This document shows positions 35,669 through 63,999 of a stretch of 64,000 bases of DNA, in pieces. This DNA comes from Dehalococcoidales bacterium (GTDB lineage Bacteria; Chloroflexota; Dehalococcoidia; Dehalococcoidales; BS750m-G39), in the NCBI GenBank assembly GCA_034419075.1, contig DAOULR010000001.1:1766-65765 (forward strand). The letters run 5' to 3'. A program made the translations under genes and the position numbers. Each line of letters begins with the position of its first letter. Within the stretch, counting starts at the first letter, position 1. The notes beneath the pieces were generated by a model. The model had not been told where the DNA came from and ran no database searches. It was given only the letters and a program-made list of their open reading frames with translations.

Positions 35669-35731
35669 TATTGATTCAGGTTTCAAGAATTACTAGCCCA
35701 GTTAGTAAATGGTTTGGAAAAGGGAGGGCCC

Positions 35732-36319
35732 ATGCTGTTCGAGGAAGTTAACCAGCTCTTAGAGCCAGGATATCTGCCCATGGAAACCGGCTATTGCCGC
35801 TTACCGAACGGGCAGTCGTTTGCCGCCACTCTGGTCAGGATGCCCGGCTGCCAGGCGAAAATGCTCGACTGGTGGTTTGGCTCTTTTCTTAGAGATACTG
35901 AGACCTATAAGCAATGGGACCCAAAAGCTCACCTGCGTTTTGAGTGGGACGATAAATGGAGTCCGGGACACTATATTGGTGCCAGCCACTATGGTGAGGA
36001 ACACTTGGCCGGAGAGGTGCTTAAGTTCGTAGTCAAATTTGATGACCCTGCCCTATTCTTCGACACCTCCAGGTTTAAGGAAGCCAGGGTGGGGGCTGTC
36101 GTCTGTGGCCAGGGCTTTCTCCCTGACGGAACGCCGGACGGGCGTTTTGTTCATCTTGCCCGCGATACCGACTATGGCTGCGAAGTACGCAGCCGATTCT
36201 GGATTTATAGTGGCGACGAGAAGATAGCCCGGGGGCATATGGAGCATTGTCTTTCTGAAATGGGTTATATGGCTGACTTGCTACCTAGTGTCTATCCCAA
36301 GGAGCCTGGTGACCAATAG
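35732..36319 (+). CDS. DAPG hydrolase PhlG-like protein
   Basis: METGYCRLPNG, MPGCQAKMLDWWF, WDPKAH, RSRFW, HCLSEM (HxxxE) motifs typical of PhlG-family domains. Confidence 0.8.
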   Translation: MLFEEVNQLLEPGYLPMETGYCRLPNGQSFAATLVRMPGCQAKMLDWWFGSFLRDTETYKQWDPKAHLRFEWDDKWSPGHYIGASHYGEEHLAGEVLKFVVKFDDPALFFDTSRFKEARVGAVVCGQGFLPDGTPDGRFVHLARDTDYGCEVRSRFWIYSGDEKIARGHMEHCLSEMGYMADLLPSVYPKEPGDQ

Positions 36320-45978: not shown

Positions 45979-47427
45979 ATGACAGGAATAGGGATCATTG
46001 CTTACGGTGTTCATATACCCCGATATCGGTTAAGCCGTAAGACTATCTCCGAAGCTATGGGCTGGCTGAGCCCTGGAGCCTTACCGGGGGAAAAGGCGGT
46101 GGCTAATTATGATGAGGACAGCCTTACTATGGCTGCCACCGCCGGTTTAGATTGCCTCAAGGAGGTCAACCGGGCCAGGGTTGATAGCCTCTGCTTCGCC
46201 TCCACCACCTTTCCCTATAAGGAGAGAGAGAGCGCCGCTATAATCGCTACAGCCCTTGACCTCAGCCCCAACATACGTACGGCTGACATGGCTAATTCCC
46301 TCAAGGCCGGGACCGAAGCTATCCTCTACGCCGGTGACTCCGTTAAAGCCAAAGGGGCCGGTAATATCTTGGTCTGCGGCGCCGATTACCGTCTGGGCAA
46401 GCCAGGTAGTCCCCAGGAGACAGTCTTCGGGGATGGGGCTGCCGCTTTTCTTCTTGGCAGCAACGGTGTGATTGCCAGCTTGGAGGGCTGGTATTCCACC
46501 TCGTACGATTTTTCGGATTACCGCCGGTCGGAAGGTGATAAATTCGTGCGAGCTGCCGAAGATAGATTCATACGGCAAGCAGGTTACACCAAGTTCATCC
46601 CTGAGGCTATTTCGGGCTTATTAAAGAAGTATAAGCTGGGAACCAAGGACTTTGCCAAAGTAGCTTACCCCTGCCTTAACTTTAGAGAACATGCCGCTAT
46701 AGGGGAAAGGCTGGGCTTTCAGCCGGAACAAATTCAGGAACCTTTGTTTGGCGTGATAGGCGAAACAGGGGTGGCTTCGCCGCTGATTTTGCTGGTGGCT
46801 ATGCTGGAGGAGGCTAAGGCCGGTGATAACATCCTCCTCGCCAGCTATGGAAACGGCGCCGAGGCTCTATTCTTCAAGGTGACCGAAGAGATAGCCAAGC
46901 TAAAGGATAGAGAAAGGCTGAAGAAGTCCCTGGCCGATAGGAGAGAACTAGCCAGCTACGAAAAGTATCTAGCCTTCCGCGGCATAATTCCGGTAGATGT
47001 GGGGGGAGGTGAGGGGGAAGTTGCCCCCACCAAGTTGCCGCTGACATGGAGGGAACGGAAAGCAATCCTGTCGCTTTATGGCTCCAAATGTAAACGCTGC
47101 GGCACTCCCCAGTACCCCCCACAAAGAATCTGCGTCAACCCTGACTGTGGGGCTGTTGATGAGATGGAGGATTACCGCTTCGCCGATAAGAAGGGGGTCG
47201 TTTTCAGTTATACTGCCGATAACGTGGCTTCCTCCATCAGCCCTCCGCTATTATACGGCATGATAGACTTTGAAGGCGGGGGCAGGTTTGTCTTTGAGCT
47301 TGCCGATTGCGATAAGGACTCAATCAGGATAGGTATGCCGGTGGAAATGAGCCTGCGCCGGAAATATATAGATGAGCTACGAGGTATCCATGGCTATTTC
47401 TGGAAGGCGATACCAATAAGAGAGTGA
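45979..47427 (+). CDS. fusion of HMG-CoA-synthase-like domain (no catalytic Cys) and DUF35 Zn-ribbon/OB-fold domain
   Basis: HIPRYRL, DEDSLTMA, NSLKAGT (in place of ACKAG), SYGNGAEA; C-terminal CKRCG..YPPQRIC..PDC and GMPVEM. Confidence 0.85.
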   Translation: MTGIGIIAYGVHIPRYRLSRKTISEAMGWLSPGALPGEKAVANYDEDSLTMAATAGLDCLKEVNRARVDSLCFASTTFPYKERESAAIIATALDLSPNIRTADMANSLKAGTEAILYAGDSVKAKGAGNILVCGADYRLGKPGSPQETVFGDGAAAFLLGSNGVIASLEGWYSTSYDFSDYRRSEGDKFVRAAEDRFIRQAGYTKFIPEAISGLLKKYKLGTKDFAKVAYPCLNFREHAAIGERLGFQPEQIQEPLFGVIGETGVASPLILLVAMLEEAKAGDNILLASYGNGAEALFFKVTEEIAKLKDRERLKKSLADRRELASYEKYLAFRGIIPVDVGGGEGEVAPTKLPLTWRERKAILSLYGSKCKRCGTPQYPPQRICVNPDCGAVDEMEDYRFADKKGVVFSYTADNVASSISPPLLYGMIDFEGGGRFVFELADCDKDSIRIGMPVEMSLRRKYIDELRGIHGYFWKAIPIRE

Positions 47428-47446
47428 TAAGTAAGAGGGAGCAGAA

Positions 47447-48658
47447 ATGCCAGAGGGGATAAAGGACAAGGTTGCCATCATAGGGATGGGGTGTACTAAA
47501 TTTGGCGAGCTTTGGGATAAGAGCGCCGAGGATTTGATGGTTGAAGCCTTTGAGGAAGCCCTTGAAGATGCTGGGATAGAGAAGAAAGATATTCAGGCAG
47601 CCTGGCAGGGCAACCAGTTCACCGAGGTCAATATAGGACACAGTGCCATCCCCTTGGCTACTACCCTTAAGCTACCCTTCATCCCGGTAACACGCGTCGA
47701 AAACCTGTGCGCCAGTGGTACGGAGGCCCTTAGAGCCGCCTGTTACGCTGTTGCCTCAGGCGCCTGCGATATCGCTCTGGCTCTTGGGGTGGAAAAGATT
47801 AAGGATCTGGGCTTCGGGGGTCTTCCCAGGGCTAACGAGGACATAGTGTCCCTCGGCACTAGGGGGAGAGTCATCTTCCCCAACTGGGTTAACCCCAACC
47901 CGGGAATGTTTGCCATGATGGCTAACAGGTATTTCGAGCGGTATGGTCTCAGCATCGAAGAGGGCAAGACAACACTGGCTAAGGTATCCGTCAAAAGCCA
48001 CCACAACGGCTCTATGAACCCCAAGGCCCACCTCCGCCGAGAAATCACCGTGGAAGATGTGCTAAAGGCCCCCATCATCGCCTGGCCTCTAGGCCTGTTC
48101 GACGCCTGTGGTGTAAGTGACGGGTCAGCGGCGGCCATCTTGGTGCGAGCCGATATGGCCAAGAATTTTAGGCCCGACCCGGTTTACATCAAGGCCCTCC
48201 AGGTTGCCGCTGAGTCTGGGGAAAGCCTGTTATACACCGATTATGATTATACTCATGTGGAGACAACCCGCCGCGCCGCTGCCAAGGCTTACCAGGAAGC
48301 CGGCGTTAAGAATCCGCGGGAAGAAATCAGCATGATAGAAGCCCATGACTGTTTCTCCATAACCGAGATGGTTACCTACGAAGACCTGATGATATCTCCC
48401 CCGGGGAAGGCCAAGGAGGATATTGACTCTGGTTTCTTTGAGCTTGATGGCAAGATTCCCTGCCAGCCCGATGGCGGTCTAAAGTGCTTTGGTCATCCCA
48501 TCGGTGCCTCAGGACTCAGGATGCTATATGAAATGTACAAACAGCTTCAAGGCAAAGCGGGGGAAAGACAGGTAAAGAATCCCCGGTTGGGACTCACCCA
48601 CAACCTGGGCGGCCAGCCACCCCTAAGTGTATGCAGTGTCTGTGTCGTAGGTCTTTAG
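47447..48658 (+). CDS. thiolase, SCP2/archaeal-type acetyl-CoA acetyltransferase-like
   Basis: VENLCASG (Cys), EAHDCF, DGGLKCFGHPIGASG motifs. Confidence 0.92.
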   Translation: MPEGIKDKVAIIGMGCTKFGELWDKSAEDLMVEAFEEALEDAGIEKKDIQAAWQGNQFTEVNIGHSAIPLATTLKLPFIPVTRVENLCASGTEALRAACYAVASGACDIALALGVEKIKDLGFGGLPRANEDIVSLGTRGRVIFPNWVNPNPGMFAMMANRYFERYGLSIEEGKTTLAKVSVKSHHNGSMNPKAHLRREITVEDVLKAPIIAWPLGLFDACGVSDGSAAAILVRADMAKNFRPDPVYIKALQVAAESGESLLYTDYDYTHVETTRRAAAKAYQEAGVKNPREEISMIEAHDCFSITEMVTYEDLMISPPGKAKEDIDSGFFELDGKIPCQPDGGLKCFGHPIGASGLRMLYEMYKQLQGKAGERQVKNPRLGLTHNLGGQPPLSVCSVCVVGL

Positions 48659-48752: not shown

Positions 48753-49265
48753 TCACTCCTCACTTTTGAAATCAACAAACTGATTAACTAGGTGCTTTCT
48801 AATCTTCCTTAAAGAAGCTGTTAACATCTGCACTTCCTCTTCACCCATTGTAGGCATAGCCGAATTCATAACCTCTAGAGTGTCTGGTAGGCTTGTTCTA
48901 ATTAATTCTAATCCCCTTTTGGTGACGATGATCCTTTTAGTCCTACGGTCTTGGCCGACTAATTCCCTTTTCACCAAACCGTCTCTCTCGAGGACATCAA
49001 TGATCTGGGTAATAGTCTGTTTGGACCGGAGTAACATCCTGCTTAAATCTGTCGGCTTCATTACCCCGCCGTGTATTATCAACGTATGCATGATATCAAA
49101 TCGGCTCCGGTTCTGGCCGATTGTCCTTGCTTTCGCAGTTATATACTTATCCAAGAGCCAGCCAGCATTGAGAAGTTGAACAACTAGTCTAAATCTCAAA
49201 TTATCACCTATCGCTCTAATATCCTCAGCTAAAGATGCCAAGTCGCCGTTGAATTTATCAGTCAT
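48753..49265 (-). CDS. MarR-family transcriptional regulator
   Basis: TITQIIDVLERDGLVKR..GQDRRTKRIIVTKRG winged-helix signature. An AGGAG RBS supports ATG 49265. Confidence 0.92.
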   Translation of the reverse strand: MTDKFNGDLASLAEDIRAIGDNLRFRLVVQLLNAGWLLDKYITAKARTIGQNRSRFDIMHTLIIHGGVMKPTDLSRMLLRSKQTITQIIDVLERDGLVKRELVGQDRRTKRIIVTKRGLELIRTSLPDTLEVMNSAMPTMGEEEVQMLTASLRKIRKHLVNQFVDFKSEE

Positions 49266-49320
49266 TGTATGTCTCCTTAGATTAACTGATTCCGTACTAT
49301 TCAATACACAATTTTAAAGC

Positions 49321-49398
49321 AAAATTGATACGGCTATGAATTATCAACCCCTTGACAATTCTTATATTATTATATAATATCTGTTAGACTTAGCGCAA
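49321..49398 (+). repeat. 78-bp inverted repeat copy 2: promoter/operator module facing the SDR operon
   Basis: TTGACA 49352-49357, TAATAT 49375-49380, TTGATA-N11-TATCAA 49325-49347. Confidence 0.92.
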
Positions 49399-49597: not shown

Positions 49598-50359
49598 ATG
49601 AAGCTCAGCGGTAAGGTAGCCGTTGTTACCGGCAGCAGCCGAGGGATAGGCAAAGCTATTGCCATAGGTTTGGCCAAGGAAGGTGCCAAGGTCGTTGTTG
49701 CCGCTCGAGCGGAAACAGAAAACGAAAAGTTACCGGGGACGATATACAAAACGGCCGACGAAATCCAGGCCTCGGGAGGCTCGGCACTGCCAATAAAGTG
49801 TGACGTGACTGACGAGCAGAGCGTCAATGATATGGTGCAAAAAGCTCTGGCGGAATTTGGCCGCCTGGATATTCTGGTCAACAACGCCGCGGTTGCCTTT
49901 TATTATCCGGTAATAGAAACGCCCCTGAAGCGCTGGGAACTGGTGCTGAGGGTTGGCTTAACTGGTGCCTTTCTCTGCTCAAAAGCAGTCCTGCCTAAAA
50001 TGATAGAACAAAAGAGTGGCAGCATCATTAACATCTCCTCGCTGGCGGCCGACCAGCGGGTTCTCAGAGAGGTCTCTACGGGTGTGGCCTATGCCGTCAC
50101 CAAAGCTGGACTCGACCGCTTCACCCGGGGTCTAGCCGCCGAGGTGGGGTGGTATAATATTGCCGCCAATGCCGTCAAGCCGGCGGGAGTAGTCGATACG
50201 GAGGGGATGAGATTATGGCAGCCGAATGCAGATAAGTCACGGTGGGAGCCGCCGGACCGGATGGTAAAAGTGGTAATTTTCTTGGCCGGACAGGATGCTA
50301 AAGGTGTTACCGGTGTCGTCGCCACCGATGAAGAATTTTGTGTCTGGCACGGACTATAA
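49598..50359 (+). CDS. short-chain dehydrogenase/reductase (SDR)
   Basis: VTGSSRGIG, LVNNAA, NISS, YAVTK (YxxxK) motifs. Confidence 0.95.
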   Translation: MKLSGKVAVVTGSSRGIGKAIAIGLAKEGAKVVVAARAETENEKLPGTIYKTADEIQASGGSALPIKCDVTDEQSVNDMVQKALAEFGRLDILVNNAAVAFYYPVIETPLKRWELVLRVGLTGAFLCSKAVLPKMIEQKSGSIINISSLAADQRVLREVSTGVAYAVTKAGLDRFTRGLAAEVGWYNIAANAVKPAGVVDTEGMRLWQPNADKSRWEPPDRMVKVVIFLAGQDAKGVTGVVATDEEFCVWHGL

Positions 50360-50375
50360 TAGAGAGGACTTTTAG

Positions 50376-51869
50376 ATGGCAATTAAAACACCGCAGGAGT
50401 ATATCGAGAGTATCAGGGATGACCGCGTGGTCTACTATCTCGGGGAGAGGGTCAAAGACGTTACCCAGCACCCTTTTCTGAAGATTTGTATTGACTGGAT
50501 GGCTACAGACTATGTCCTCTCGAATGACCCCCGATACCAGAGCCTACTCACCGAAAAAGATGAAGACGGTGAACTGGTGCCCTTCATCCTGAGTGCCCAG
50601 AAAAGCCGGGAAGACCTGCTCCGGCTGAGGGATATAGTGAAACTCATGGCCAGGGTTTGCTACGGCAAGCCGTCCGGGGCTAAGTTCGTGGGCAAGGATG
50701 GGCTGAATGCCGTGACCGTGGTCTCACAGCGCGTCGACAAGAAATACGGCACACACTATGCCAAAAACGTTGAGGCATATCGCCAATACCTGCAGAAAAA
50801 CGACCTATCCCTGGCCATGGGAATGACCGACGTCAAGGGCGACCGGAGCCTGCGTCCCTCAAAGCAACAGCCCCACCAGGACTATTATGTCCACATAGTC
50901 GACGAGCGTAAAGACGGAATCGTGGTCAGAGGGGCTAAGATGCACATCAGCGAGGCCCCCCTTTCCAACGAGATAATCGTTGTGCCCTGCCGGGCGATGC
51001 AGGAGGATGACAAGGACTACGCTGTTTCCTTCGGCATTAATGCCGATGCCAAGGGCATTACTATGGTCAGCCCTGAAGCAGAAACCAATGAGCCGGGTAA
51101 TTTCTTTGACCATCCCATCACTGCCAGCGTCTATATTAATGATGCCCTCATCGCCTTTGACGACGTATTTATACCTAATGAAAGAATATTTTTGAAGAGG
51201 GAATGGGAGTTCGCTGGCGATATCGCCTATATGTTCGGCGATTTTCATCGCCTCAGTGCCGAGACCTACAAAGCGGCCGAACTTGAAATCCTTACCGGCG
51301 CCGCCGTGTTGATGGCTGAATACAACGGGATTGACCAAGCCTCACACGTTAAGGAAAAACTCACTTGGCTAGCGCAATATACTGAGGCAGTTGAAATTCT
51401 GGGCAGCGCTGCCTGCGAACATTGTGTATCCGAACCTGATTCTGACCTAGTCTATCCCAACCCGATGATCGCCAACATATGCAAGCTCTACTTCGCCGAT
51501 AACTGGCACCAGGCTACCAAGTACGTTCAGGATATTGCCGGGGGTATCGTGGCCACCGTTCCCTCAGCCAAGGACTGGCAGAACCCGGTGACGCACAAAC
51601 TAATGGAAAAATACTTCGGCGGTAAGGAGGGCATTCCTACCGAACACAGGCTCAAGGTTATAAAGCTGATAAAAGATTCTACCTCTGTCTACGAAGACGT
51701 GCTCACTATTCATGCCGAGGGTTCCCCGGCGGCGCAGAAGCTTTCTATATACTCCTTGGCCGATTTTGAAAGGTATAAGGCAGCAGCCAAGAGAGCCGCC
51801 AGGATTAAGGACGGAACGGAACACCCCATCTTTAGCCAACTGCCAGAGTTCCCCCCAGGGATAGCCTAA
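50376..51869 (+). CDS. 4-hydroxybutyryl-CoA dehydratase (AbfD)/HpaB-family flavoprotein lacking the Fe-S cysteines
   Basis: MTDVKGDRSLRPS, GIVVRGAKMH, FDDVFIPNERIF, DIAGG, HAEGSPAAQ motifs. Confidence 0.85.
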   Translation: MAIKTPQEYIESIRDDRVVYYLGERVKDVTQHPFLKICIDWMATDYVLSNDPRYQSLLTEKDEDGELVPFILSAQKSREDLLRLRDIVKLMARVCYGKPSGAKFVGKDGLNAVTVVSQRVDKKYGTHYAKNVEAYRQYLQKNDLSLAMGMTDVKGDRSLRPSKQQPHQDYYVHIVDERKDGIVVRGAKMHISEAPLSNEIIVVPCRAMQEDDKDYAVSFGINADAKGITMVSPEAETNEPGNFFDHPITASVYINDALIAFDDVFIPNERIFLKREWEFAGDIAYMFGDFHRLSAETYKAAELEILTGAAVLMAEYNGIDQASHVKEKLTWLAQYTEAVEILGSAACEHCVSEPDSDLVYPNPMIANICKLYFADNWHQATKYVQDIAGGIVATVPSAKDWQNPVTHKLMEKYFGGKEGIPTEHRLKVIKLIKDSTSVYEDVLTIHAEGSPAAQKLSIYSLADFERYKAAAKRAARIKDGTEHPIFSQLPEFPPGIA

Positions 51870-51918
51870 TTCGGCCCGTGACTTGTTTGGTTATTTTTTG
51901 ATTGGAGGAGGAAAGCCA

Positions 51919-52779
51919 ATGGAAATCAAGAAAGTCGGTGTGGTCGGTTGCGGGTTGATGGGTAGTGGTATCGCCCAGGTCTGTGCCCAATCAGGCTACC
52001 AAGTAGTGGTCTCGGAAATAAACGATGACCTGCTGAATAAAGGGCTGGCATCAATCAATGCCCGGCTGGCTAAAAGTGTGGAAAAGGGGAAGCTCTCCGC
52101 TGAGGAAAGGGACAAAGCCCTCAACCGCATTAAAGGCACTACCAATAGTCAGGACTTCTCTGACTGCGGTCTAGTAATAGAAGCCATTATTGAGAAGGTG
52201 GAGCCGAAGAGGAAGGTATTTGCCAAGCTGGATAAAATATGCCCCAAAGATACCATCCTAGCTACGAATACGTCGGTCTTATCCATAATTGAAATCGCCG
52301 AGGCAACTAAGCGGCCGGACAAGGTGCTGGGGCTGCACTTCTTTAACCCGGTGCCAGTCATGGAACTGGTAGAGGCAATCAAGACCATCGCCACCAGTGA
52401 AGATACTCTTAGAATTGGCACTGAATTCGTTAAGTCCTTGGGAAAGACGGCCATTATCGCCAAGGATACTCCGGGCTTTGTGGTCAACCGCCAGCTGGAA
52501 CCTTTCCTAAACAATGCTATCCGCATGCTGGAAGACGGCGTTGCCACCAGGGAAGACATCGATGCCGGCGTAAAGCTGGGGCTAAATCACCCCATCGGCC
52601 CTCTAGAGCTGGCCGATTTAATTGGCCTGGACACCGTTTACTTTGGCGCCATTGACATGTATGATAAATTCAAAGAGCCCCAATATGCCCCGCCCGTTCT
52701 GCTGGGCAAGATGGTTGCCGCCGGCTGGCTGGGGCGTAAGACCGGAAAAGGCTTTTACGATTACGAAAAACCGGCCTGA
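51919..52779 (+). CDS. 3-hydroxyacyl-CoA (3-hydroxybutyryl-CoA) dehydrogenase
   Basis: VGVVGCGLMGSGIA, ATNTS, GLHFFNPVPVM, HPIGPLEL.D, GRKTGKGFYDY motifs. Confidence 0.95.
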   Translation: MEIKKVGVVGCGLMGSGIAQVCAQSGYQVVVSEINDDLLNKGLASINARLAKSVEKGKLSAEERDKALNRIKGTTNSQDFSDCGLVIEAIIEKVEPKRKVFAKLDKICPKDTILATNTSVLSIIEIAEATKRPDKVLGLHFFNPVPVMELVEAIKTIATSEDTLRIGTEFVKSLGKTAIIAKDTPGFVVNRQLEPFLNNAIRMLEDGVATREDIDAGVKLGLNHPIGPLELADLIGLDTVYFGAIDMYDKFKEPQYAPPVLLGKMVAAGWLGRKTGKGFYDYEKPA

Positions 52780-52839: not shown

Positions 52840-54360
52840 ATGGAAGCATTTTTTTGGTGGACTGATGAGCAGAAAAAACTGGCTGTCGAAGCCAGGGAGT
52901 TTGTCGATGACCTGATGCCCAGGGCTGAGGAGGCTTCCTGGAAGAAAGAGTTTCCCCGGGACATCGCTGATCGCATCGCCGGTAGAGGGTACTTCGGGGT
53001 TGGCATAGCCAAGGAGAACGGGGGTATGGGGCTGGGTATAACCGGGACCTGCATTGTTAACGAGGAGGTCAGCCGTATGCCGGCTTTGGGACCCGGTATA
53101 TTCACCTCGGCTATGCTGGGAGGGGTTCATCAGATTACCGAGTTCGGCACCGCTGAGCAGAAGGCCAGATTCTTAGCCAGGGTGGCTAAGGGGGAGCTGG
53201 GGGCAGTCGCTCTTACCGAGCCCTTTGTCGGTACCGATGCCGCTGGCATTGAGACTACCGCCCGGCGTGATGGCGACCGGTATATAATCAACGGCAAGAA
53301 GAGGTTCGTGACCGGAGCCGGCACCGCCAGCCGGTACATGCTCTACGCCCGGACCAGTGATGACGCCGAAGCTGTACGCCACAACCGCCACCTTACCGGC
53401 TTCATCGTGGAAAAGGGGATGCCCGGCTTCACTATAGAAAAAATAAACGAACTGATTGCCCTGGATAATATTCACAACGGCTATCTGAACCTGGATGAGG
53501 TGTCGGTGCCGGCAGATAACCGTGTCGGAGATGAGGGCCAGGGCTGGCAGATAATGATGTCGGGGCTTAACTATGAACGGTTAATCTGTGCTACACTGGC
53601 GGTTGGCGGCTTTCGCGAACTGCTTAAAAGCGTGGTTTCCTACGGGCAAAGGCGCGTCCAGTTCGGCCAGCCGACGATAAATATTACCACCAACCAGTTC
53701 AAGATTGCCGACATGCTCACGGAACTTAAGCTGGCCAGACTAGCCACCTACTACGCCGCCCACCTTATGGATTCGGGGCAGCCAGCGGTGGTAGAAGCCT
53801 CTATTGCCAAGCTCTACGGTGCTGATATGCTCATGCAAGCCAGCGTGGAGGCGACTCAGGTGATGGGGGGAGATGGTGCTACCAAATTCTATCCCCTGGA
53901 TAGAATAATGAGGGAGGCCAAGACGGCTCAGATAGCCGGCGGCACCAGCGAGGCGATGAAGCTCCTTATTTACCGGATGGGACTAAGAGAAATGGCCGAA
54001 GAGCTGAAGATGCCGCACCGGGTCATCCACGAGGAGCTGGGGGTGCCTATGCCGACAGCGGAGCCGGCTAAACAACACCAGATTGATGACGATAAGCTGC
54101 TGGGGGTGCTGGCCGAAGACTACCGGGTCAACCCAGGTCTGTACATGAGCCGGGAGGACTTGAAAGCGCGGTTTGACGTGGAGGATAAAGAATTAGACCG
54201 GGTACTGGTATCTCTGGAAGAGAAAGGGCTGGTTAAGCTGTACCGGAGGCGCGGTGCGATTGAGCTGGCTAAGGCGACCTACCAAGGGCTGAAGAAGGCT
54301 AATTCAGCAGAATACTACCGGTGGTTCCCACCGAGGGTCAGAAAAGAAGATATTTTCTAG
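52840..54360 (+). CDS. acyl-CoA dehydrogenase with a ~110-aa C-terminal winged-helix-like extension
   Basis: ALTEPFVGTDA, INGKKRFVT, NYERL, FGQP, QVMGGDG, AGGTSE motifs, then an extra domain. Confidence 0.9.
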   Translation: MEAFFWWTDEQKKLAVEAREFVDDLMPRAEEASWKKEFPRDIADRIAGRGYFGVGIAKENGGMGLGITGTCIVNEEVSRMPALGPGIFTSAMLGGVHQITEFGTAEQKARFLARVAKGELGAVALTEPFVGTDAAGIETTARRDGDRYIINGKKRFVTGAGTASRYMLYARTSDDAEAVRHNRHLTGFIVEKGMPGFTIEKINELIALDNIHNGYLNLDEVSVPADNRVGDEGQGWQIMMSGLNYERLICATLAVGGFRELLKSVVSYGQRRVQFGQPTINITTNQFKIADMLTELKLARLATYYAAHLMDSGQPAVVEASIAKLYGADMLMQASVEATQVMGGDGATKFYPLDRIMREAKTAQIAGGTSEAMKLLIYRMGLREMAEELKMPHRVIHEELGVPMPTAEPAKQHQIDDDKLLGVLAEDYRVNPGLYMSREDLKARFDVEDKELDRVLVSLEEKGLVKLYRRRGAIELAKATYQGLKKANSAEYYRWFPPRVRKEDIF

Positions 54361-54434: not shown

Positions 54435-55106
54435 ATGTCGGAAACAGGGGAATACAAGGAACTTCTAAAAAGACTGGAAAAAGCCGAAAAAAACGCCCAG
54501 ATAGCCAGAGATTGGGTTGAGATTTCTAATCTGCACGGACGTTATAATCACCTTTGTTTAGGCCACTATTGGGAAAAAATCTGCGATGAGCTTTTTGCCA
54601 AGAAGACCCCCGGGGTCAAGGCAGAGATAGTTGAGAGCGGTGTTTTCCACGGCATTGAGGGCGTCAAAAAGGTTTTTATAGAGATGCTGGGCAAGCTCTA
54701 TAACTACGAAGGGAACTGCGCCATCCACGAGCTGACGACGCCGGTTATTCAGATACAACCGGATATGAAAACAGCCAAAGGGATGTGGTTCCATATCGGG
54801 CTTAACACATTTCTTGATCCGGTCAAGGGCGTGATTCCCATATGGCAAGTTATAAAATACAACCATATCTTCGTTAAAGAAGACGGACAGTGGAAGTTCT
54901 GGGACTACCGGGCTCATCTGATGCTACGCAGTTCCTACGAAAAGGCATGGGTTGAAGAACCAGTTATTCAGGGTAGTACTATCAAGGGCGCCAAGGAAGC
55001 CGAAGCGCCCAAACCCGATGAGCCGACCAGTTTCCATCAGCCCTACCCCGGGAAGAAAGGATACTGGGCAGGCCTGCCACTGCCACCGGAATACATTGAC
55101 CTTTAG
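54435..55106 (+). CDS. SnoaL-like / NTF2-family protein
   Basis: EISNLHGRY, IHELTTPVI, KYNHIFVKEDGQWKFW motifs. Confidence 0.85.
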   Translation: MSETGEYKELLKRLEKAEKNAQIARDWVEISNLHGRYNHLCLGHYWEKICDELFAKKTPGVKAEIVESGVFHGIEGVKKVFIEMLGKLYNYEGNCAIHELTTPVIQIQPDMKTAKGMWFHIGLNTFLDPVKGVIPIWQVIKYNHIFVKEDGQWKFWDYRAHLMLRSSYEKAWVEEPVIQGSTIKGAKEAEAPKPDEPTSFHQPYPGKKGYWAGLPLPPEYIDL

Positions 55107-63273: not shown

Positions 63274-63999
63274 TTATTGGCCTTCCTTAGACTGTTTTAT
63301 CGTTTGGGTAAGTAACGGCACTACCTGATGCAGGTCAGCCACTATGCCGTAGTCGGCAATTTGAAATACCGGAGCCTCGGGGTCGCTATTTATAGCAACT
63401 ATGGTCTCAGATTCCCTCATCCCGGCGAGGTGCTGGACAGCCCCGGATATGCCACAGGCAATATATAGCTTTGGTCTTACAGTTTTTCCCGTTTGACCTA
63501 CCTGATGGGTGCTTGATATCCATCCAGCGTCAACTACGTCCCGCGAGGCGCCAACCTCACCGCCCAAGGCCTTGGCCAACTCTTCGATTAACTCAAATTT
63601 TTCCGGTGTTCCCACCCCCCTACCGCCGGAGACAATAATATCAGCCTCCTCCAGGTTAACGCTCTTTTCTCCCTCTTTGACTATCTCCACTATCCTGACC
63701 ATTGTACTCTTCGGGTCAATATCTAAGGGTATCTTTATTACCTCACCCTTTCTGGCTACATCCCTATCCAGAGCCTTCATAACCCTGGGCCTGACCGTCG
63801 CCATTTGAGGTCTGTTTATTGGCGTTACAATAGAGGCCATAATGTTGCCGCCGAAGGCTGGCCTGGTCTGCACCAACAGACGCGCCTCCTTATCAATGCT
63901 AAGCCCGGTACAATCCGCGGTTAATCCTGTCCCTATCCTCCGGGCGATTCGTGGGGCTAGATCCCTACCCAGGTAAGTTGCCCCTATAAGGAATATCTC
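63274..63999 (-). CDS. etfA: electron transfer flavoprotein alpha subunit (5' truncated by the window end)
   Basis: The frame is open to the window end (GLTADCT, QTRPAFGGN, GGRG, QVGQTG, GISGAVQH, AINSD). Confidence 0.95.
   Translation of the reverse strand, partial: EIFLIGATYLGRDLAPRIARRIGTGLTADCTGLSIDKEARLLVQTRPAFGGNIMASIVTPINRPQMATVRPRVMKALDRDVARKGEVIKIPLDIDPKSTMVRIVEIVKEGEKSVNLEEADIIVSGGRGVGTPEKFELIEELAKALGGEVGASRDVVDAGWISSTHQVGQTGKTVRPKLYIACGISGAVQHLAGMRESETIVAINSDPEAPVFQIADYGIVADLHQVVPLLTQTIKQSKEGQ

What the first reader, a model, noticed from the sequence alone, without database searches (positions are those of the whole stretch)
50376..51869. AbfD-like protein that has lost its iron-sulfur ligands and most catalytic residues
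Seen: the scaffold closely follows 4-hydroxybutyryl-CoA dehydratase, but CFQRCVGMD becomes SGAKFVGKD and YHRQSYGGCK becomes FHRLSAETYK. All three cluster Cys are gone (only His remains), and the ESMHGAG Glu is replaced (LTIHAEG). The comparison is from my recollection of the C. aminobutyricum sequence. Established: AbfD needs [4Fe-4S] plus FAD, and HpaB relatives need O2 and a flavin reductase. Inference: this is a third, cluster-free activity in this fold, such as an acyl-CoA isomerase or dehydrogenase.
Basis: partly seen in the sequence, partly recalled or inferred. Interest (0 to 1): 0.6.

Follow-up and report, generated by a model that had tools for sequence, protein, structure and literature searches.

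The report
Iron-sulfur-free relative of 4-hydroxybutyryl-CoA dehydratase
This gene encodes a flavoprotein built like the radical enzyme 4-hydroxybutyryl-CoA dehydratase but without its iron-sulfur site; it belongs to a large, unstudied and routinely mis-labelled enzyme branch that carries the catalytic glutamate of ordinary acyl-CoA dehydrogenases and therefore almost certainly does different chemistry.

Summary
ORF 50376-51869 (497 aa) is real, and its best solved relative is AbfD (1u8v, E 7e-78). Three of the four [4Fe-4S] ligands are replaced: C99->S100, C103->F104, C299->Y298. His292 is kept. Tyr296 and Glu455 are lost. Thr190 and Glu257 change conservatively (Ser, Asp), so "most catalytic residues lost" is overstated.

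This is not a decayed one-off. The protein belongs to a large cluster-free branch found in Chloroflexota, Desulfobacterota, Bacillota, Poribacteria, Binatia, Asgard archaea and Bathyarchaeia. The branch has its own near-invariant signature: H291-R292-x-x-A/G-x-x-Y298-K ... H446-x-E448-G-S. Alignment places E448 on the catalytic Glu (YEG motif) of canonical acyl-CoA dehydrogenases, where AbfD has Ala.

No Cys column is conserved across the branch, so an alternative cluster is excluded as a branch-wide feature. It stays open only for the query's narrow subfamily (C95, C205, C347-x-x-C350).

The host is a strict anaerobe, and the gene sits in a beta-oxidation-like operon. An SDR gene is the recurrent neighbour (29 of 78 loci).

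My best reading is an FAD-dependent, non-radical acyl-CoA enzyme that starts by C-alpha deprotonation. It would be an isomerase/gamma-elimination enzyme or a dehydrogenase. The substrate is unknown.

The same scan reached this reading earlier on other genomes.

The parts
50376..51869 (+). Cluster-free AbfD/HpaB-fold flavoprotein ('X', 497 aa). Key residues: S100 and F104 (AbfD C99, C103), S192, C205, D256, H291, R292, A295, Y298, K299, C347-x-x-C350, L443, H446, E448.
   Evidence: ORF and translation. Pfam HpaB_N+HpaB. AbfD 1u8v E 7e-78 with residue mapping. AF2 model pLDDT 95, Foldseek TM 0.89 to 6vjr and 1u8v. Clade signature.
50362..50367 (+). Shine-Dalgarno GAGAGG, 8 nt upstream of the ATG of X. 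The SDR stop codon is at 50357-50359, so the two genes are translationally close-coupled.
   Evidence: Sequence read.
49598..50359 (+). Classical SDR (253 aa) directly upstream. It is the recurrent partner gene of the clade. Its nearest solved relatives are 3e03, HSDL2 (3kvo) and the (3R)-hydroxyacyl-CoA dehydrogenase of MFE-2 (2et6).
   Evidence: Pfam adh_short 1.3e-51. PDB hits. An SDR lies within +-4 genes in 29 of 78 loci and at +-1 on the same strand in 17.
51883..52779 (+). 3-hydroxyacyl-CoA (3-hydroxybutyryl-CoA-type) dehydrogenase, directly downstream of X.
   Evidence: 3HCDH_N and 3HCDH. NCBIfam PRK07819 369 bits, above its cut-off. Orthologues lie next to X in L007 and L009.
52840..54360 (+). 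Canonical acyl-CoA dehydrogenase (506 aa, with a C-terminal extension that matches no domain), in the same operon.
   Evidence: Three ACAD Pfam domains covering residues 8-379.
54435..55106 (+). SnoaL_4-domain protein (223 aa), the last gene of the co-directional run.
   Evidence: Pfam.
45979..47427 (+). HMG-CoA-synthase-like/PhlA-like condensing enzyme fused to a DUF35 (ChsH2 zinc-ribbon plus OB) domain.
   Evidence: Pfam. NCBIfam PRK04262 228.6 bits, below the 244 cut-off. A 63% identical orthologue sits directly after X in L009.
47447..48658 (+). SCP-x/PhlC-type thiolase.
   Evidence: Pfam Thiolase_C_1 and Thiolase_N. NCBIfam PRK06157 614 bits. A 79% identical orthologue lies two genes after X in L009.
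48753..49304 (-). MarR-family regulator, divergent from the SDR-X operon.
   Evidence: Pfam MarR_2.
49352..49380 (+). Promoter-like site TTGACA-17-TAATAT in the MarR/SDR intergenic region. This is a consensus match only.

Best explanation
SHOWN. X is a full-length, well-folded member of the AbfD/HpaB fold. It belongs to a large, uncharacterised, cluster-free branch. That branch lacks the three Cys ligands of the AbfD [4Fe-4S] cluster. It keeps AbfD's His292, Arg293, Lys300, His458 and the Thr190/Glu257 pair (as Ser/Asp here). It has two near-invariant residues of its own. Tyr298 stands in place of ligand Cys299. Glu448 stands in place of AbfD Ala460, at the alignment position of the catalytic Glu of canonical acyl-CoA dehydrogenases. 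In this strict anaerobe X is the only gene of the family. It sits in the operon SDR - X - 3-hydroxyacyl-CoA dehydrogenase - ACAD - SnoaL, beside a thiolase/DUF35-condensing-enzyme pair, inside a 33-kb catabolic island.

INFERRED MECHANISM. X binds FAD as AbfD and ACADs do and acts on an acyl-CoA thioester without radical or Fe-S chemistry. Glu448, probably paired with the neighbouring His291, removes the C-alpha proton as in an ACAD. Tyr298 projects into the space that the cluster fills in AbfD, next to the substrate's C-gamma, and there gives or takes a proton. The most likely outcome is a redox-neutral reaction: a shift of a beta,gamma double bond to alpha,beta (like AbfD's vinylacetyl-CoA isomerase half-reaction) or a non-radical elimination or addition at C-gamma of an oxygenated acyl-CoA. 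A plain alpha,beta-dehydrogenation (X filling the 'ACAD slot') is nearly as likely. The empty cluster space probably also lets X take a longer or bulkier acyl group than C4. The partner SDR would make or consume the hydroxy/oxo group of the same CoA ester. Substrate identity is unknown. In this window it would be a ring-opened product of cyclic diketone or phloroglucinol-type compounds.
For: Fold and family:
- Pfam HpaB_N/HpaB.
- 1u8v E 7e-78, 6vjr 1e-68, HpaB 2e-50.
- AF2 pLDDT 95, TM 0.89 to 6vjr and 1u8v.

Ligand loss and retained residues:
- Residue mapping.
- Invariant in 120 close homologues.

Separate clade:
- FastTree gives a 100* split from the Fe-S clade.
- IQ-TREE with ACAD outgroups gives SH-aLRT 100 for the cluster-free group.

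Clade-specific residues:
- A295, Y298 and E448 are in >=88% of the clade (Y298 and E448 in all 26 sampled members) and <30% of Fe-S members.
- Over 78 loci: H291 78/78, R292 78/78, H446 77, E448 77, Y298 64 (Lys in 13).

E448 equals the ACAD Glu:
- MAFFT L-INS-i aligns G449 with the Gly of 'Y-E-G-T' in canonical ACADs found in the loci. E-INS-i aligns the whole motif, with E448 on the Glu.
- AbfD reads H-G-A-G-S at that place.

No clade-wide alternative cluster:
- No Cys column exceeds 54%.
- Some members have only 2 Cys.

Acyl-CoA context:
- Window operon.
- L002/L003: TetR | SDR-X-ECH-thiolase.
- L007: X-3HCDH-ECH-ligase. L009: X-HMGCS/DUF35-thiolase-3HCDH.
- Neighbour families across loci: SDR 29/78, ACAD 11, CoA ligase 9, 3HCDH 5, thiolase 5, ECH 4.
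- In 20 operon-like runs with beta-oxidation genes, a canonical ACAD is present in only 2.
- The SDR's nearest solved relatives include (3R)-hydroxyacyl-CoA dehydrogenase.

Anaerobic host:
- No COX1 and no cytochrome bd. CdhC and POR are present. The genome is 94.8% complete.
- X is the single HpaB_N gene in the genome.

Established knowledge used:
- AbfD ligands and catalytic residues.
- From memory, Martins et al. 2004: the His-ligated Fe of the cluster binds the substrate 4-OH.
Against: - No biochemical datum exists for any member. I found no paper on the clade in the searchable library.
- FAD binding is inferred only from the fold and from the conserved 'TDxKGDRS' motif and Ser/Thr192.
- The E448/ACAD-Glu equivalence rests on a motif-driven sequence alignment. 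Profile-profile alignment did not reach that region or placed it elsewhere at 2% probability. I had no model coordinates, so I made no structural superposition.
- The window operon already has a canonical ACAD, which argues against a plain dehydrogenase role here.
- Fatty-acid operons often lack their ACAD, so the 'ACAD slot' argument is weak.
- In Poribacteria the operon is Gfo/Idh/MocA - X - SDR with no CoA genes. Some subclades may therefore not use CoA esters at all.
- The adjacent SDRs are only 29-39% identical to each other outside the close subfamily, so they need not be orthologues.
- The narrow subfamily conserves four Cys of unknown purpose.
Confidence: 0.6

Rival explanations
1. X is functionally an ordinary acyl-CoA dehydrogenase (or enoyl-CoA reductase run in reverse) in an AbfD-shaped scaffold. 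Glu448 takes the C-alpha proton, a hydride goes from C-beta to FAD, and the electrons leave through ETF or another carrier. This is the second half of the best explanation, listed separately because it predicts net redox chemistry.
For: - E448 aligns with the ACAD catalytic Glu.
- X is the only ACAD-fold gene in 18 of 20 operon-like runs that also hold hydratase, hydroxyacyl-CoA dehydrogenase, thiolase or ligase genes. An example is L002, SDR-X-ECH-thiolase, which would be a complete beta-oxidation set.
- ETF genes lie in the window at 63274-63999.
Against: - The clade keeps a set of AbfD active-site residues that ACADs do not need (H291, R292, K299, H446, E/D256-S/T192) and adds an invariant protic residue (Y298, or Lys) deep in the pocket.
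- A canonical ACAD sits two genes downstream in this operon.
- ETF was not among the recurrent neighbour families. Within the operon-like runs it was scored in only one locus, L043.
Confidence: 0.28
2. X is still a radical 4-hydroxybutyryl-CoA-type dehydratase. It would bind an Fe-S cluster (or another metal) through alternative ligands: His291 plus the subfamily-conserved C95, C205 and C347-x-x-C350.
For: - In 120 close homologues, C205 is kept in 97%, C347 in 99%, C350 in 97% and C95 in 88%. H291 is invariant.
- C95 lies 5 residues before the old C99 position.
- C347 and C350 sit at the end of the helix that should run antiparallel to the His291 helix (secondary structure; the geometry is inferred).
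Against: - Outside the >=56% identity subfamily these Cys are not kept together. Across 78 loci no Cys column exceeds 54%, and some members have only 2 Cys, while H291, Y298 and E448 stay invariant.
- C95 and C350 are replaced by Ser in some close members.
- Catalytic Y296 and E455 are gone.
- Bulky F104 and Y298 occupy the former ligand positions.
Confidence: 0.07
3. X is an HpaB-type oxygenase component of a two-component flavin monooxygenase. It would use free reduced flavin and O2 to hydroxylate an aromatic compound.
For: - Pfam names both domains HpaB.
- In the trees the HpaB oxygenases emerge from within the same cluster-free group.
- Three Flavin_Reduct genes exist elsewhere in the genome.
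- The island deals with phenolic-type substrates.
- Some clade members live in aerobes such as Binatia, Poribacteria and Tepidiformaceae.
Against: - The genome lacks heme-copper and bd oxidases and has acetyl-CoA synthase and several ferredoxin-dependent oxidoreductases.
- X scores 195 bits against the 480 cut-off of the HpaB equivalog.
- There is no counterpart of the phenol-binding Tyr104 and His142 of T. thermophilus HpaB (residue roles from memory).
- X scores much higher with AbfD than with HpaB (266 against 175 bits).
- No flavin reductase gene lies nearby.
- The neighbours are CoA-ester enzymes.
Confidence: 0.05

Closest known systems
4-Hydroxybutyryl-CoA dehydratase / vinylacetyl-CoA delta-isomerase (AbfD, Clostridium aminobutyricum, PDB 1u8v; Nitrosopumilus maritimus 4HBD, PDB 6vjr)
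   Same: - Same three-domain fold (TM 0.89), same length, 32-34% identity.
- Keeps His292, Arg293, Lys300, His458 and the 'TDxKGDRS', 'FDDVFIP' and 'QDIAGG' blocks.
- Keeps the Thr190/Glu257 pair as Ser/Asp.
- Sits among acyl-CoA genes.
- May share the cluster-independent isomerase half-reaction.
   Different: - Cys99, Cys103 and Cys299 are replaced by Ser, Phe and Tyr.
- Tyr296 becomes Ala and Glu455 becomes Leu.
- Ala460 becomes Glu.
- It lies in a different, fully supported clade.
- Radical dehydration through an Fe-bound hydroxyl is therefore not possible in the known way.
Acyl-CoA dehydrogenases (MCAD type; Pfam Acyl-CoA_dh_N/M/1)
   Same: - Same superfold (Foldseek TM about 0.5, E 1e-10).
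- Glu448-Gly-Ser-x-x-x-Gln aligns with the Tyr-Glu-Gly-Thr catalytic-base motif.
- His291 lies on the helix that carries the alternative base in IVD/LCAD-type ACADs (from memory).
- The gene context is beta-oxidation-like.
   Different: - No ACAD Pfam domain passes threshold. There is only a weak Acyl-CoA_dh_M hit at 20.8 bits against a 33.3 cut-off.
- X is about 110 residues longer.
- It carries AbfD-type active-site residues and a Tyr in the acyl pocket.
HpaB-type oxygenase components of two-component flavin monooxygenases (T. thermophilus HpaB 2yyg; E. coli HpaB; TftD, HadA, SgcC)
   Same: - Same Pfam domains and fold (TM 0.84-0.87).
- Also without an Fe-S cluster.
- Same side of the family tree.
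   Different: - 20-27% identity.
- His291, His446 and Glu448 are not conserved in the oxygenases.
- The phenol-binding Tyr and His have no counterpart.
- The host is a strict anaerobe.
Cluster-free AbfD-like proteins noted earlier in this scan on other genomes (e1-2166605, e1-5396983, e1-2112807)
   Same: Same reading: no Fe-S site, ACAD-type glutamate, unstudied mis-annotated branch. The motif quoted in e1-2112807 (GKPPGAKFVAKDG) matches the query's own close subfamily (for example P0055).
   Different: - Other genomes and other operons.
- New here: the recurrent SDR partner.
- New here: the invariant Tyr298.
- New here: the subfamily-specific Cys set.
- New here: the placement of the HpaB oxygenases within this group.
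- New here: the strict-anaerobe evidence for the host.

Membership tests
AbfD (4-hydroxybutyryl-CoA dehydratase, EC 4.2.1.120) | HpaB_N + HpaB domains with the AbfD-like three-domain fold | tested here: met
   Pfam 1.4e-79 and 8.2e-51. Foldseek TM 0.89 to 1u8v and 6vjr.
AbfD (4-hydroxybutyryl-CoA dehydratase, EC 4.2.1.120) | [4Fe-4S] ligands Cys99, Cys103, His292, Cys299 | tested here: not met
   S100, F104, H291, Y298: only the His is kept. The replacements are invariant in 120 close homologues except position 100 (Ser or Pro).
AbfD (4-hydroxybutyryl-CoA dehydratase, EC 4.2.1.120) | Catalytic residues Thr190, Glu257, Tyr296, Glu455 | tested here: not met
   S192 and D256 are conservative changes. 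A295 and L443 are losses. Residue roles are as cited.
AbfD (4-hydroxybutyryl-CoA dehydratase, EC 4.2.1.120) | Bound FAD; dehydratase and vinylacetyl-CoA isomerase activity | not testable with these tools
   Needs purified protein.
HpaB oxygenase component (two-component flavin monooxygenase) | Scores above the NCBIfam equivalog cut-offs TIGR02309 and TIGR02310 | tested here: not met
   194.9 bits against 480.2, and 124.9 against 885.2.
HpaB oxygenase component (two-component flavin monooxygenase) | Phenol-binding Tyr104 and His142 (T. thermophilus numbering; roles from memory) | tested here: not met
   G109 and M148 in the pairwise alignment. Across the clade these columns are G/A and M/L/V. 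The Arg100 equivalent is ambiguous (K103 or V105).
HpaB oxygenase component (two-component flavin monooxygenase) | Partner flavin reductase and an O2-using host | tested here: inconclusive
   Three Flavin_Reduct genes exist but on other contigs. No COX1 or cytochrome bd was found. CdhC and POR are present. The genome is 94.8% complete.
Acyl-CoA dehydrogenase (ACAD) | Pfam Acyl-CoA_dh_N/M/1 domains above threshold | tested here: not met
   Only Acyl-CoA_dh_M at 20.8 bits against a 33.3 cut-off. No ACAD hit on the C-terminal part at E <= 10.
Acyl-CoA dehydrogenase (ACAD) | Catalytic Glu in the Y-E-G-T loop | tested here: met
   MAFFT E-INS-i puts E448-G449 on the E-G of YEGT in ACADs from L044, L068 and L084. 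L-INS-i aligns only the Gly and what follows, leaving the ACAD Glu outside the block. hhalign could not confirm it, so it is met at sequence-motif level only.
Unnamed cluster-free AbfD-like clade (H-R-x-x-A/G-x-x-Y-K ... H-x-E-G-S) | H291, R292, A/G295, Y298, K299, H446, E448, and no Cys at the three ligand positions | tested here: met
   The query carries all of them. Frequencies over 78 loci: 78, 78, 78, 64, 57, 77, 77. The query clusters inside the clade with SH-like support of 98-100.

The most novel reading that the evidence does not exclude
The cluster-free branch would be a new flavoenzyme class that performs chemistry at C-gamma of acyl-CoA esters, for example non-radical dehydration of 4-hydroxyacyl-CoA or conversion of 4-/5-oxoacyl-CoA. 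It would use a Glu448/His291 base and a Tyr298 acid in place of the [4Fe-4S] cluster. That would be an oxygen-insensitive, metal-free answer to the reaction for which AbfD needs radical chemistry. The branch would also be the living intermediate from which the O2-dependent HpaB monooxygenases arose.
Probability: 0.2. Interest if true: 0.75.

Novelty: new variant of a known kind. Interest (0 to 1): 0.55.

Why it matters
Databases label thousands of these genes '4-hydroxybutyryl-CoA dehydratase'. abfD is used as a marker gene for the archaeal 4-hydroxybutyrate CO2-fixation cycles and for butyrate fermentation in metagenome surveys (for example). Members of this branch cannot do that reaction in the known way, so such surveys risk false positives in Chloroflexota, Desulfobacterota, Asgard archaea and Bathyarchaeia.

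Biochemically, the branch combines the active-site furniture of a radical dehydratase with the base of an acyl-CoA dehydrogenase. In the trees it also lies between the Fe-S dehydratases and the O2-dependent HpaB hydroxylases. It is therefore a good place to ask how one scaffold changed between radical, ionic and oxygen chemistry.

The branch is abundant in anoxic sediments and aquifers. Knowing its substrate would fill a step in the anaerobic breakdown of organic acids or plant-phenol products.

Tried and rejected
- Complex prediction of X with the upstream SDR (alignments A2 and A4) gave no verdict: score 0.00 against a mark of 0.32. It is evidence neither way.
- hhalign of the clade profile against ACAD profiles aligned only residues 123-395 (94.5% probability). 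It did not reach E448. A C-terminal-only run gave a 2% probability alignment that I disregard.
- A Pfam scan of the C-terminal part at E <= 10 showed no ACAD domain.
- The first rooted tree, with the mixture model, was killed by the memory limit. I re-ran it with LG+G4. The root fell among the Fe-S forms, but on a very long outgroup branch, so I draw no direction of evolution from it.
- Literature searches for a described cluster-free AbfD relative found nothing relevant.
- The Martins 2004 and Zhang 2015 papers are not held.
- The ESM Atlas gave only generic names.
- I considered the SDR as a DECR-type 2,4-dienoyl-CoA reductase feeding a 3-enoyl-CoA to X. No DECR appears among the SDR's 60 best solved relatives, and it has the classical Ser-Tyr-Lys triad, so I dropped the idea as unsupported.
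- I considered the SDR as a phloroglucinol reductase. Nothing supported this.
Full report
THE OBSERVATION

The ORF at 50376-51869 (+) is open and encodes 497 residues. A GAGAGG ribosome-binding site lies 8 nt before the ATG. The ORF starts 16 nt after the stop of an SDR gene. Pfam finds HpaB_N (1.4e-79) and HpaB (8.2e-51) over the whole length.

Against all PDB sequences the best match is C. aminobutyricum 4-hydroxybutyryl-CoA dehydratase, AbfD (1u8v, E 7e-78). Next come the N. maritimus enzyme (6vjr, 1e-68) and T. thermophilus HpaB (2e-50). It gives this mapping:
- C99 -> S100
- C103 -> F104
- H292 = H291
- Y296 -> A295
- C299 -> Y298
- K300 = K299
- E455 -> L443
- E257 -> D256
- T190 -> S192

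The AbfD residue roles (cluster ligands C99, C103, C299, H292; catalytic T190, E257, Y296, E455) are stated in bioRxiv 10.1101/2020.02.05.935528. One correction applies: only Y296 and E455 are truly lost among the non-ligand catalytic residues.

An AlphaFold2 model built on a 91-sequence alignment is confident (mean pLDDT 95, pTM 0.91). It superposes best on 6vjr and 1u8v (TM 0.89), then on HpaB oxygenases (0.84-0.87), and distantly on acyl-CoA dehydrogenases (about 0.5).

NOT A ONE-OFF

A search of 5.8 billion proteins returned thousands of relatives. The best 120 are 71-91% identical and nearly all 495-500 residues long. They come from Dehalococcoidia, Desulfobacterales, Omnitrophica and unbinned metagenomes, and most are labelled '4-hydroxybutyryl-CoA dehydratase'. 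In these 120, F104, S192, D256, H291, R292, A295 and Y298 are invariant.

An exhaustive search of 50%-identity representatives found 261 clusters at E <= 1e-30. I mapped the ligand columns on 102 full-length representatives and built a tree. The family splits with full support into two parts:
- An Fe-S clade. C103 and C299 are kept in 48 of 59 rows, and AbfD proper is P0151, which scores 661 bits to 1u8v.
- A cluster-free side. It holds the query's group (signature H-R-x-x-A/G-x-x-Y-K), an intermediate group, and the true HpaB oxygenases. P0176 scores 258 bits to T. thermophilus HpaB.

An IQ-TREE run with five canonical ACADs as outgroup again gave SH-aLRT 100 for the cluster-free group. It shows the query's type as a grade from which the oxygenases emerge. 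The root position lies on a very long branch and should not be trusted.

WHAT DEFINES THE BRANCH

I compared the query's clade with the Fe-S clade. Nine positions are conserved in the former (>=88%) and rare in the latter. The striking ones are A295 (AbfD Y296), Y298 (AbfD C299) and E448 (AbfD A460; Gly or Ala in Fe-S members).

A scan of one genome per species returned 80 loci. They come from Desulfobacterota, Chloroflexota, Bacillota, Poribacteria, Binatia, Latescibacterota, Acidimicrobiales, Asgard archaea, Bathyarchaeia and Archaeoglobales. Adding L001, L002 and L004 gave 82 loci whose central gene I could score; 78 of those are cluster-free. In those 78:
- H291 and R292 occur in 78.
- H446, E448 and G449 occur in 77.
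- Y298 occurs in 64, with Lys in 13 (a Syntrophales-type subclade).

The stretch H446-A-E448-G-S-x-x-x-Q resembles the Y-E-G-T-x-x-x-Q loop that carries the catalytic base of MCAD-type acyl-CoA dehydrogenases. MAFFT E-INS-i places E448-G449 on the E-G of 'YEGT' in canonical ACADs taken from the fetched loci. L-INS-i agrees only from the Gly onwards. AbfD reads H-G-A-G-S there.

Profile-profile alignment could not confirm this, and I had no coordinates for a superposition. The equivalence is therefore supported at motif level only. Two earlier follow-ups in this scan, on other genomes, reached the same reading (e1-2166605 and e1-5396983). I had derived it before reading them.

THE ALTERNATIVE-LIGAND QUESTION

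Across the 78 loci no alignment column is Cys in more than 54% of sequences, and some members have only two Cys in total. A cluster is therefore not a feature of the branch.

The query's own subfamily (>=56% identity) does conserve C205 (97%), C347 (99%), C350 (97%) and C95 (88%). C347-E-H-C350 sits at the end of helix 323-348. C205 aligns with T203 of AbfD and S197 of HpaB. From memory, that position lies by the flavin. C350 recurs as Cys in about 40% of the whole branch.

I could not measure distances. A subfamily-specific metal site or redox-active Cys pair therefore remains possible, and I put it at about 7%.

HOST AND CONTEXT

The assembly is 1.73 Mb and 94.8% complete. It is an uncultured Dehalococcoidia bacterium according to earlier notes. 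It has one HpaB_N gene only. It has no heme-copper or bd oxidase. It has acetyl-CoA synthase and several 2-oxoacid:ferredoxin oxidoreductase genes. An O2-dependent hydroxylase role is thus unlikely.

This agrees with three further points. The score is far below the HpaB equivalog cut-offs. The HpaB phenol-binding Tyr and His have no counterpart. No flavin reductase gene lies nearby.

The gene lies in a co-directional run: SDR - X - 3-hydroxyacyl-CoA dehydrogenase - ACAD - SnoaL. A divergent MarR gene and a promoter-like site precede the run. A fused HMG-CoA-synthase-like/DUF35 gene and an SCP-x-type thiolase lie just upstream. The wider 33 kb holds the following (earlier notes e1-5122601 and e1-5122605):
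- ene-reductase-type flavoenzymes
- two camphor-hydrolase-like crotonases
- a PhlG-like hydrolase
- CoA-transferases
- a TRAP transporter
- more ACADs
- ETF

In a related Dehalococcoidales contig the order is X - HMGCS/DUF35 - thiolase - 3HCDH, with 63-80% identical proteins. These genes therefore form a module.

NEIGHBOURS ACROSS THE BRANCH

I clustered the four genes on each side of X in 78 loci. One family stands out: an SDR of about 255 aa occurs in 29 loci and sits at the adjacent position on the same strand in 17. It is upstream in some lineages and downstream in others.

The next families are ACAD (11), AMP-forming CoA ligase (9), TetR (8), Zn-ADH (8), 3HCDH (5), thiolase (5) and crotonase (4).

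Operon-like runs include SDR-X-ECH-thiolase (L002/L003) and X-3HCDH-ECH-ligase (L007). Twenty runs contain beta-oxidation genes, and only two of them also hold a canonical ACAD.

The window SDR has the classical Ser-Tyr-Lys triad. Its nearest solved relatives include HSDL2 and the (3R)-hydroxyacyl-CoA dehydrogenase of MFE-2.

Two cautions apply. The adjacent SDRs are only about 30-39% identical between lineages. In Poribacteria the operon is Gfo/Idh/MocA - X - SDR without CoA genes. The branch may therefore not be uniform in substrate.

MECHANISM (INFERRED)

AbfD uses His292 and its Fe-S cluster: the His-ligated Fe binds the substrate's 4-hydroxyl (from memory, Martins et al. 2004). X keeps the His but replaces the neighbouring ligand Cys299 by an invariant Tyr. 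That Tyr must project into the space vacated by the cluster, beside the substrate's C-gamma. X also gains a Glu at the ACAD base position.

The simplest picture has four steps:
- FAD is bound as in AbfD and ACADs. The 'TDxKGDRS' block and Ser/Thr192 are kept.
- The thioester is polarised as in ACADs.
- Glu448, with His291, removes the C-alpha proton.
- Tyr298 (Lys in one subclade) transfers a proton at C-gamma.

This architecture suits a beta,gamma-to-alpha,beta double-bond shift, or an ionic elimination or addition at C-gamma of a hydroxy- or oxo-acyl-CoA. It would equally allow plain alpha,beta-dehydrogenation if a hydride goes to FAD.

I rate the general statement (cluster-free, flavin-dependent, ACAD-like initiation on an acyl-CoA) at 0.6. 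Within it, redox-neutral chemistry is slightly more likely than dehydrogenation. My reason is that the branch retains AbfD-specific residues that ACADs do not need, and this operon already has an ACAD. The missing cluster should also enlarge the acyl pocket.

COMPARISON, NOVELTY AND VERDICT

X fails the defining test for AbfD (ligands and two catalytic residues). It fails the test for HpaB oxygenases (cut-offs, substrate residues, anaerobic host). It fails the test for ACADs (no ACAD domains), although it shares the ACAD catalytic motif.

It is a member of an unnamed, widespread, uncharacterised branch. I found no paper describing that branch in the searchable library. This scan has met the branch several times on other genomes.

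I class it as a new variant of a known kind, of moderate-to-good interest (0.55). It matters mainly for three reasons. The 'abfD' label is used as a pathway marker. The branch lies between radical, ionic and oxygen-dependent chemistry on one scaffold. Its substrate is still unknown.

WHAT DID NOT WORK

The SDR-X complex prediction gave no verdict.

Noticed in passing
window 50376-51869: residues C95, C205, C347, H349, C350 of X: The query's narrow subfamily (>=56% identity) conserves four Cys, including a C-E-H-C motif at the end of helix 323-348. The wider cluster-free branch does not keep them together, although Cys350 alone recurs in about 40% of the branch. They may form a subfamily-specific metal site, disulfide or catalytic thiol.
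   Followed up: partly
L013-L023, L063, L072 (e.g. Desulfatitalea alkaliphila L013:8001-9491; Smithellaceae L021): A distinct subclade, mostly from syntrophic Desulfobacterota plus a Dehalococcoidia MAG (L019) and an Asgard archaeon (L063), carries Cys at the old C103 position plus C205, and has Gly295, Lys298, Met299 and Asp443. It still has His291, His446 and Glu448. Where neighbours were identified they are an AMP-forming CoA ligase (L021, L023) and a long ACAD (L021).
   Followed up: partly
L024-L030 (Poribacteria genomes): Here X sits in a conserved three-gene run, Gfo/Idh/MocA oxidoreductase - X - SDR, with no CoA-ester genes nearby. Some members of the branch may act on non-CoA substrates.
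   Followed up: no
window 45979-48658 and L009:1276-3951: A condensing enzyme (HMG-CoA synthase/PhlA-like) fused to a DUF35 zinc-ribbon/OB domain, followed by an SCP-x-type thiolase, travels with X in two Dehalococcoidales genomes. The trio resembles both the archaeal thiolase/HMGCS/DUF35 complex and the PhlACB acyltransferase. A PhlG-like hydrolase lies at 35714-36319.
   Followed up: partly
P0038-P0042, P0051, P0083, L007, L008, L010: The query's subfamily is 69-80% identical between Dehalococcoidia, Desulfobacterota, Bacillota and Omnitrophica. Yet no sampled Dehalococcoidia species genome other than the window's own has a copy above 50% identity. This pattern suggests horizontal spread of a strongly constrained gene.
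   Followed up: no
window 52840-54360: The operon's ACAD is 506 aa long. Its three ACAD domains end at about residue 380, leaving a C-terminal extension of about 125 residues with no Pfam match.
   Followed up: no
window 51883-52779: The listed TTG start of the 3-hydroxyacyl-CoA dehydrogenase lies 16 codons before its NAD-binding domain begins. The true start may be further downstream.
   Followed up: no
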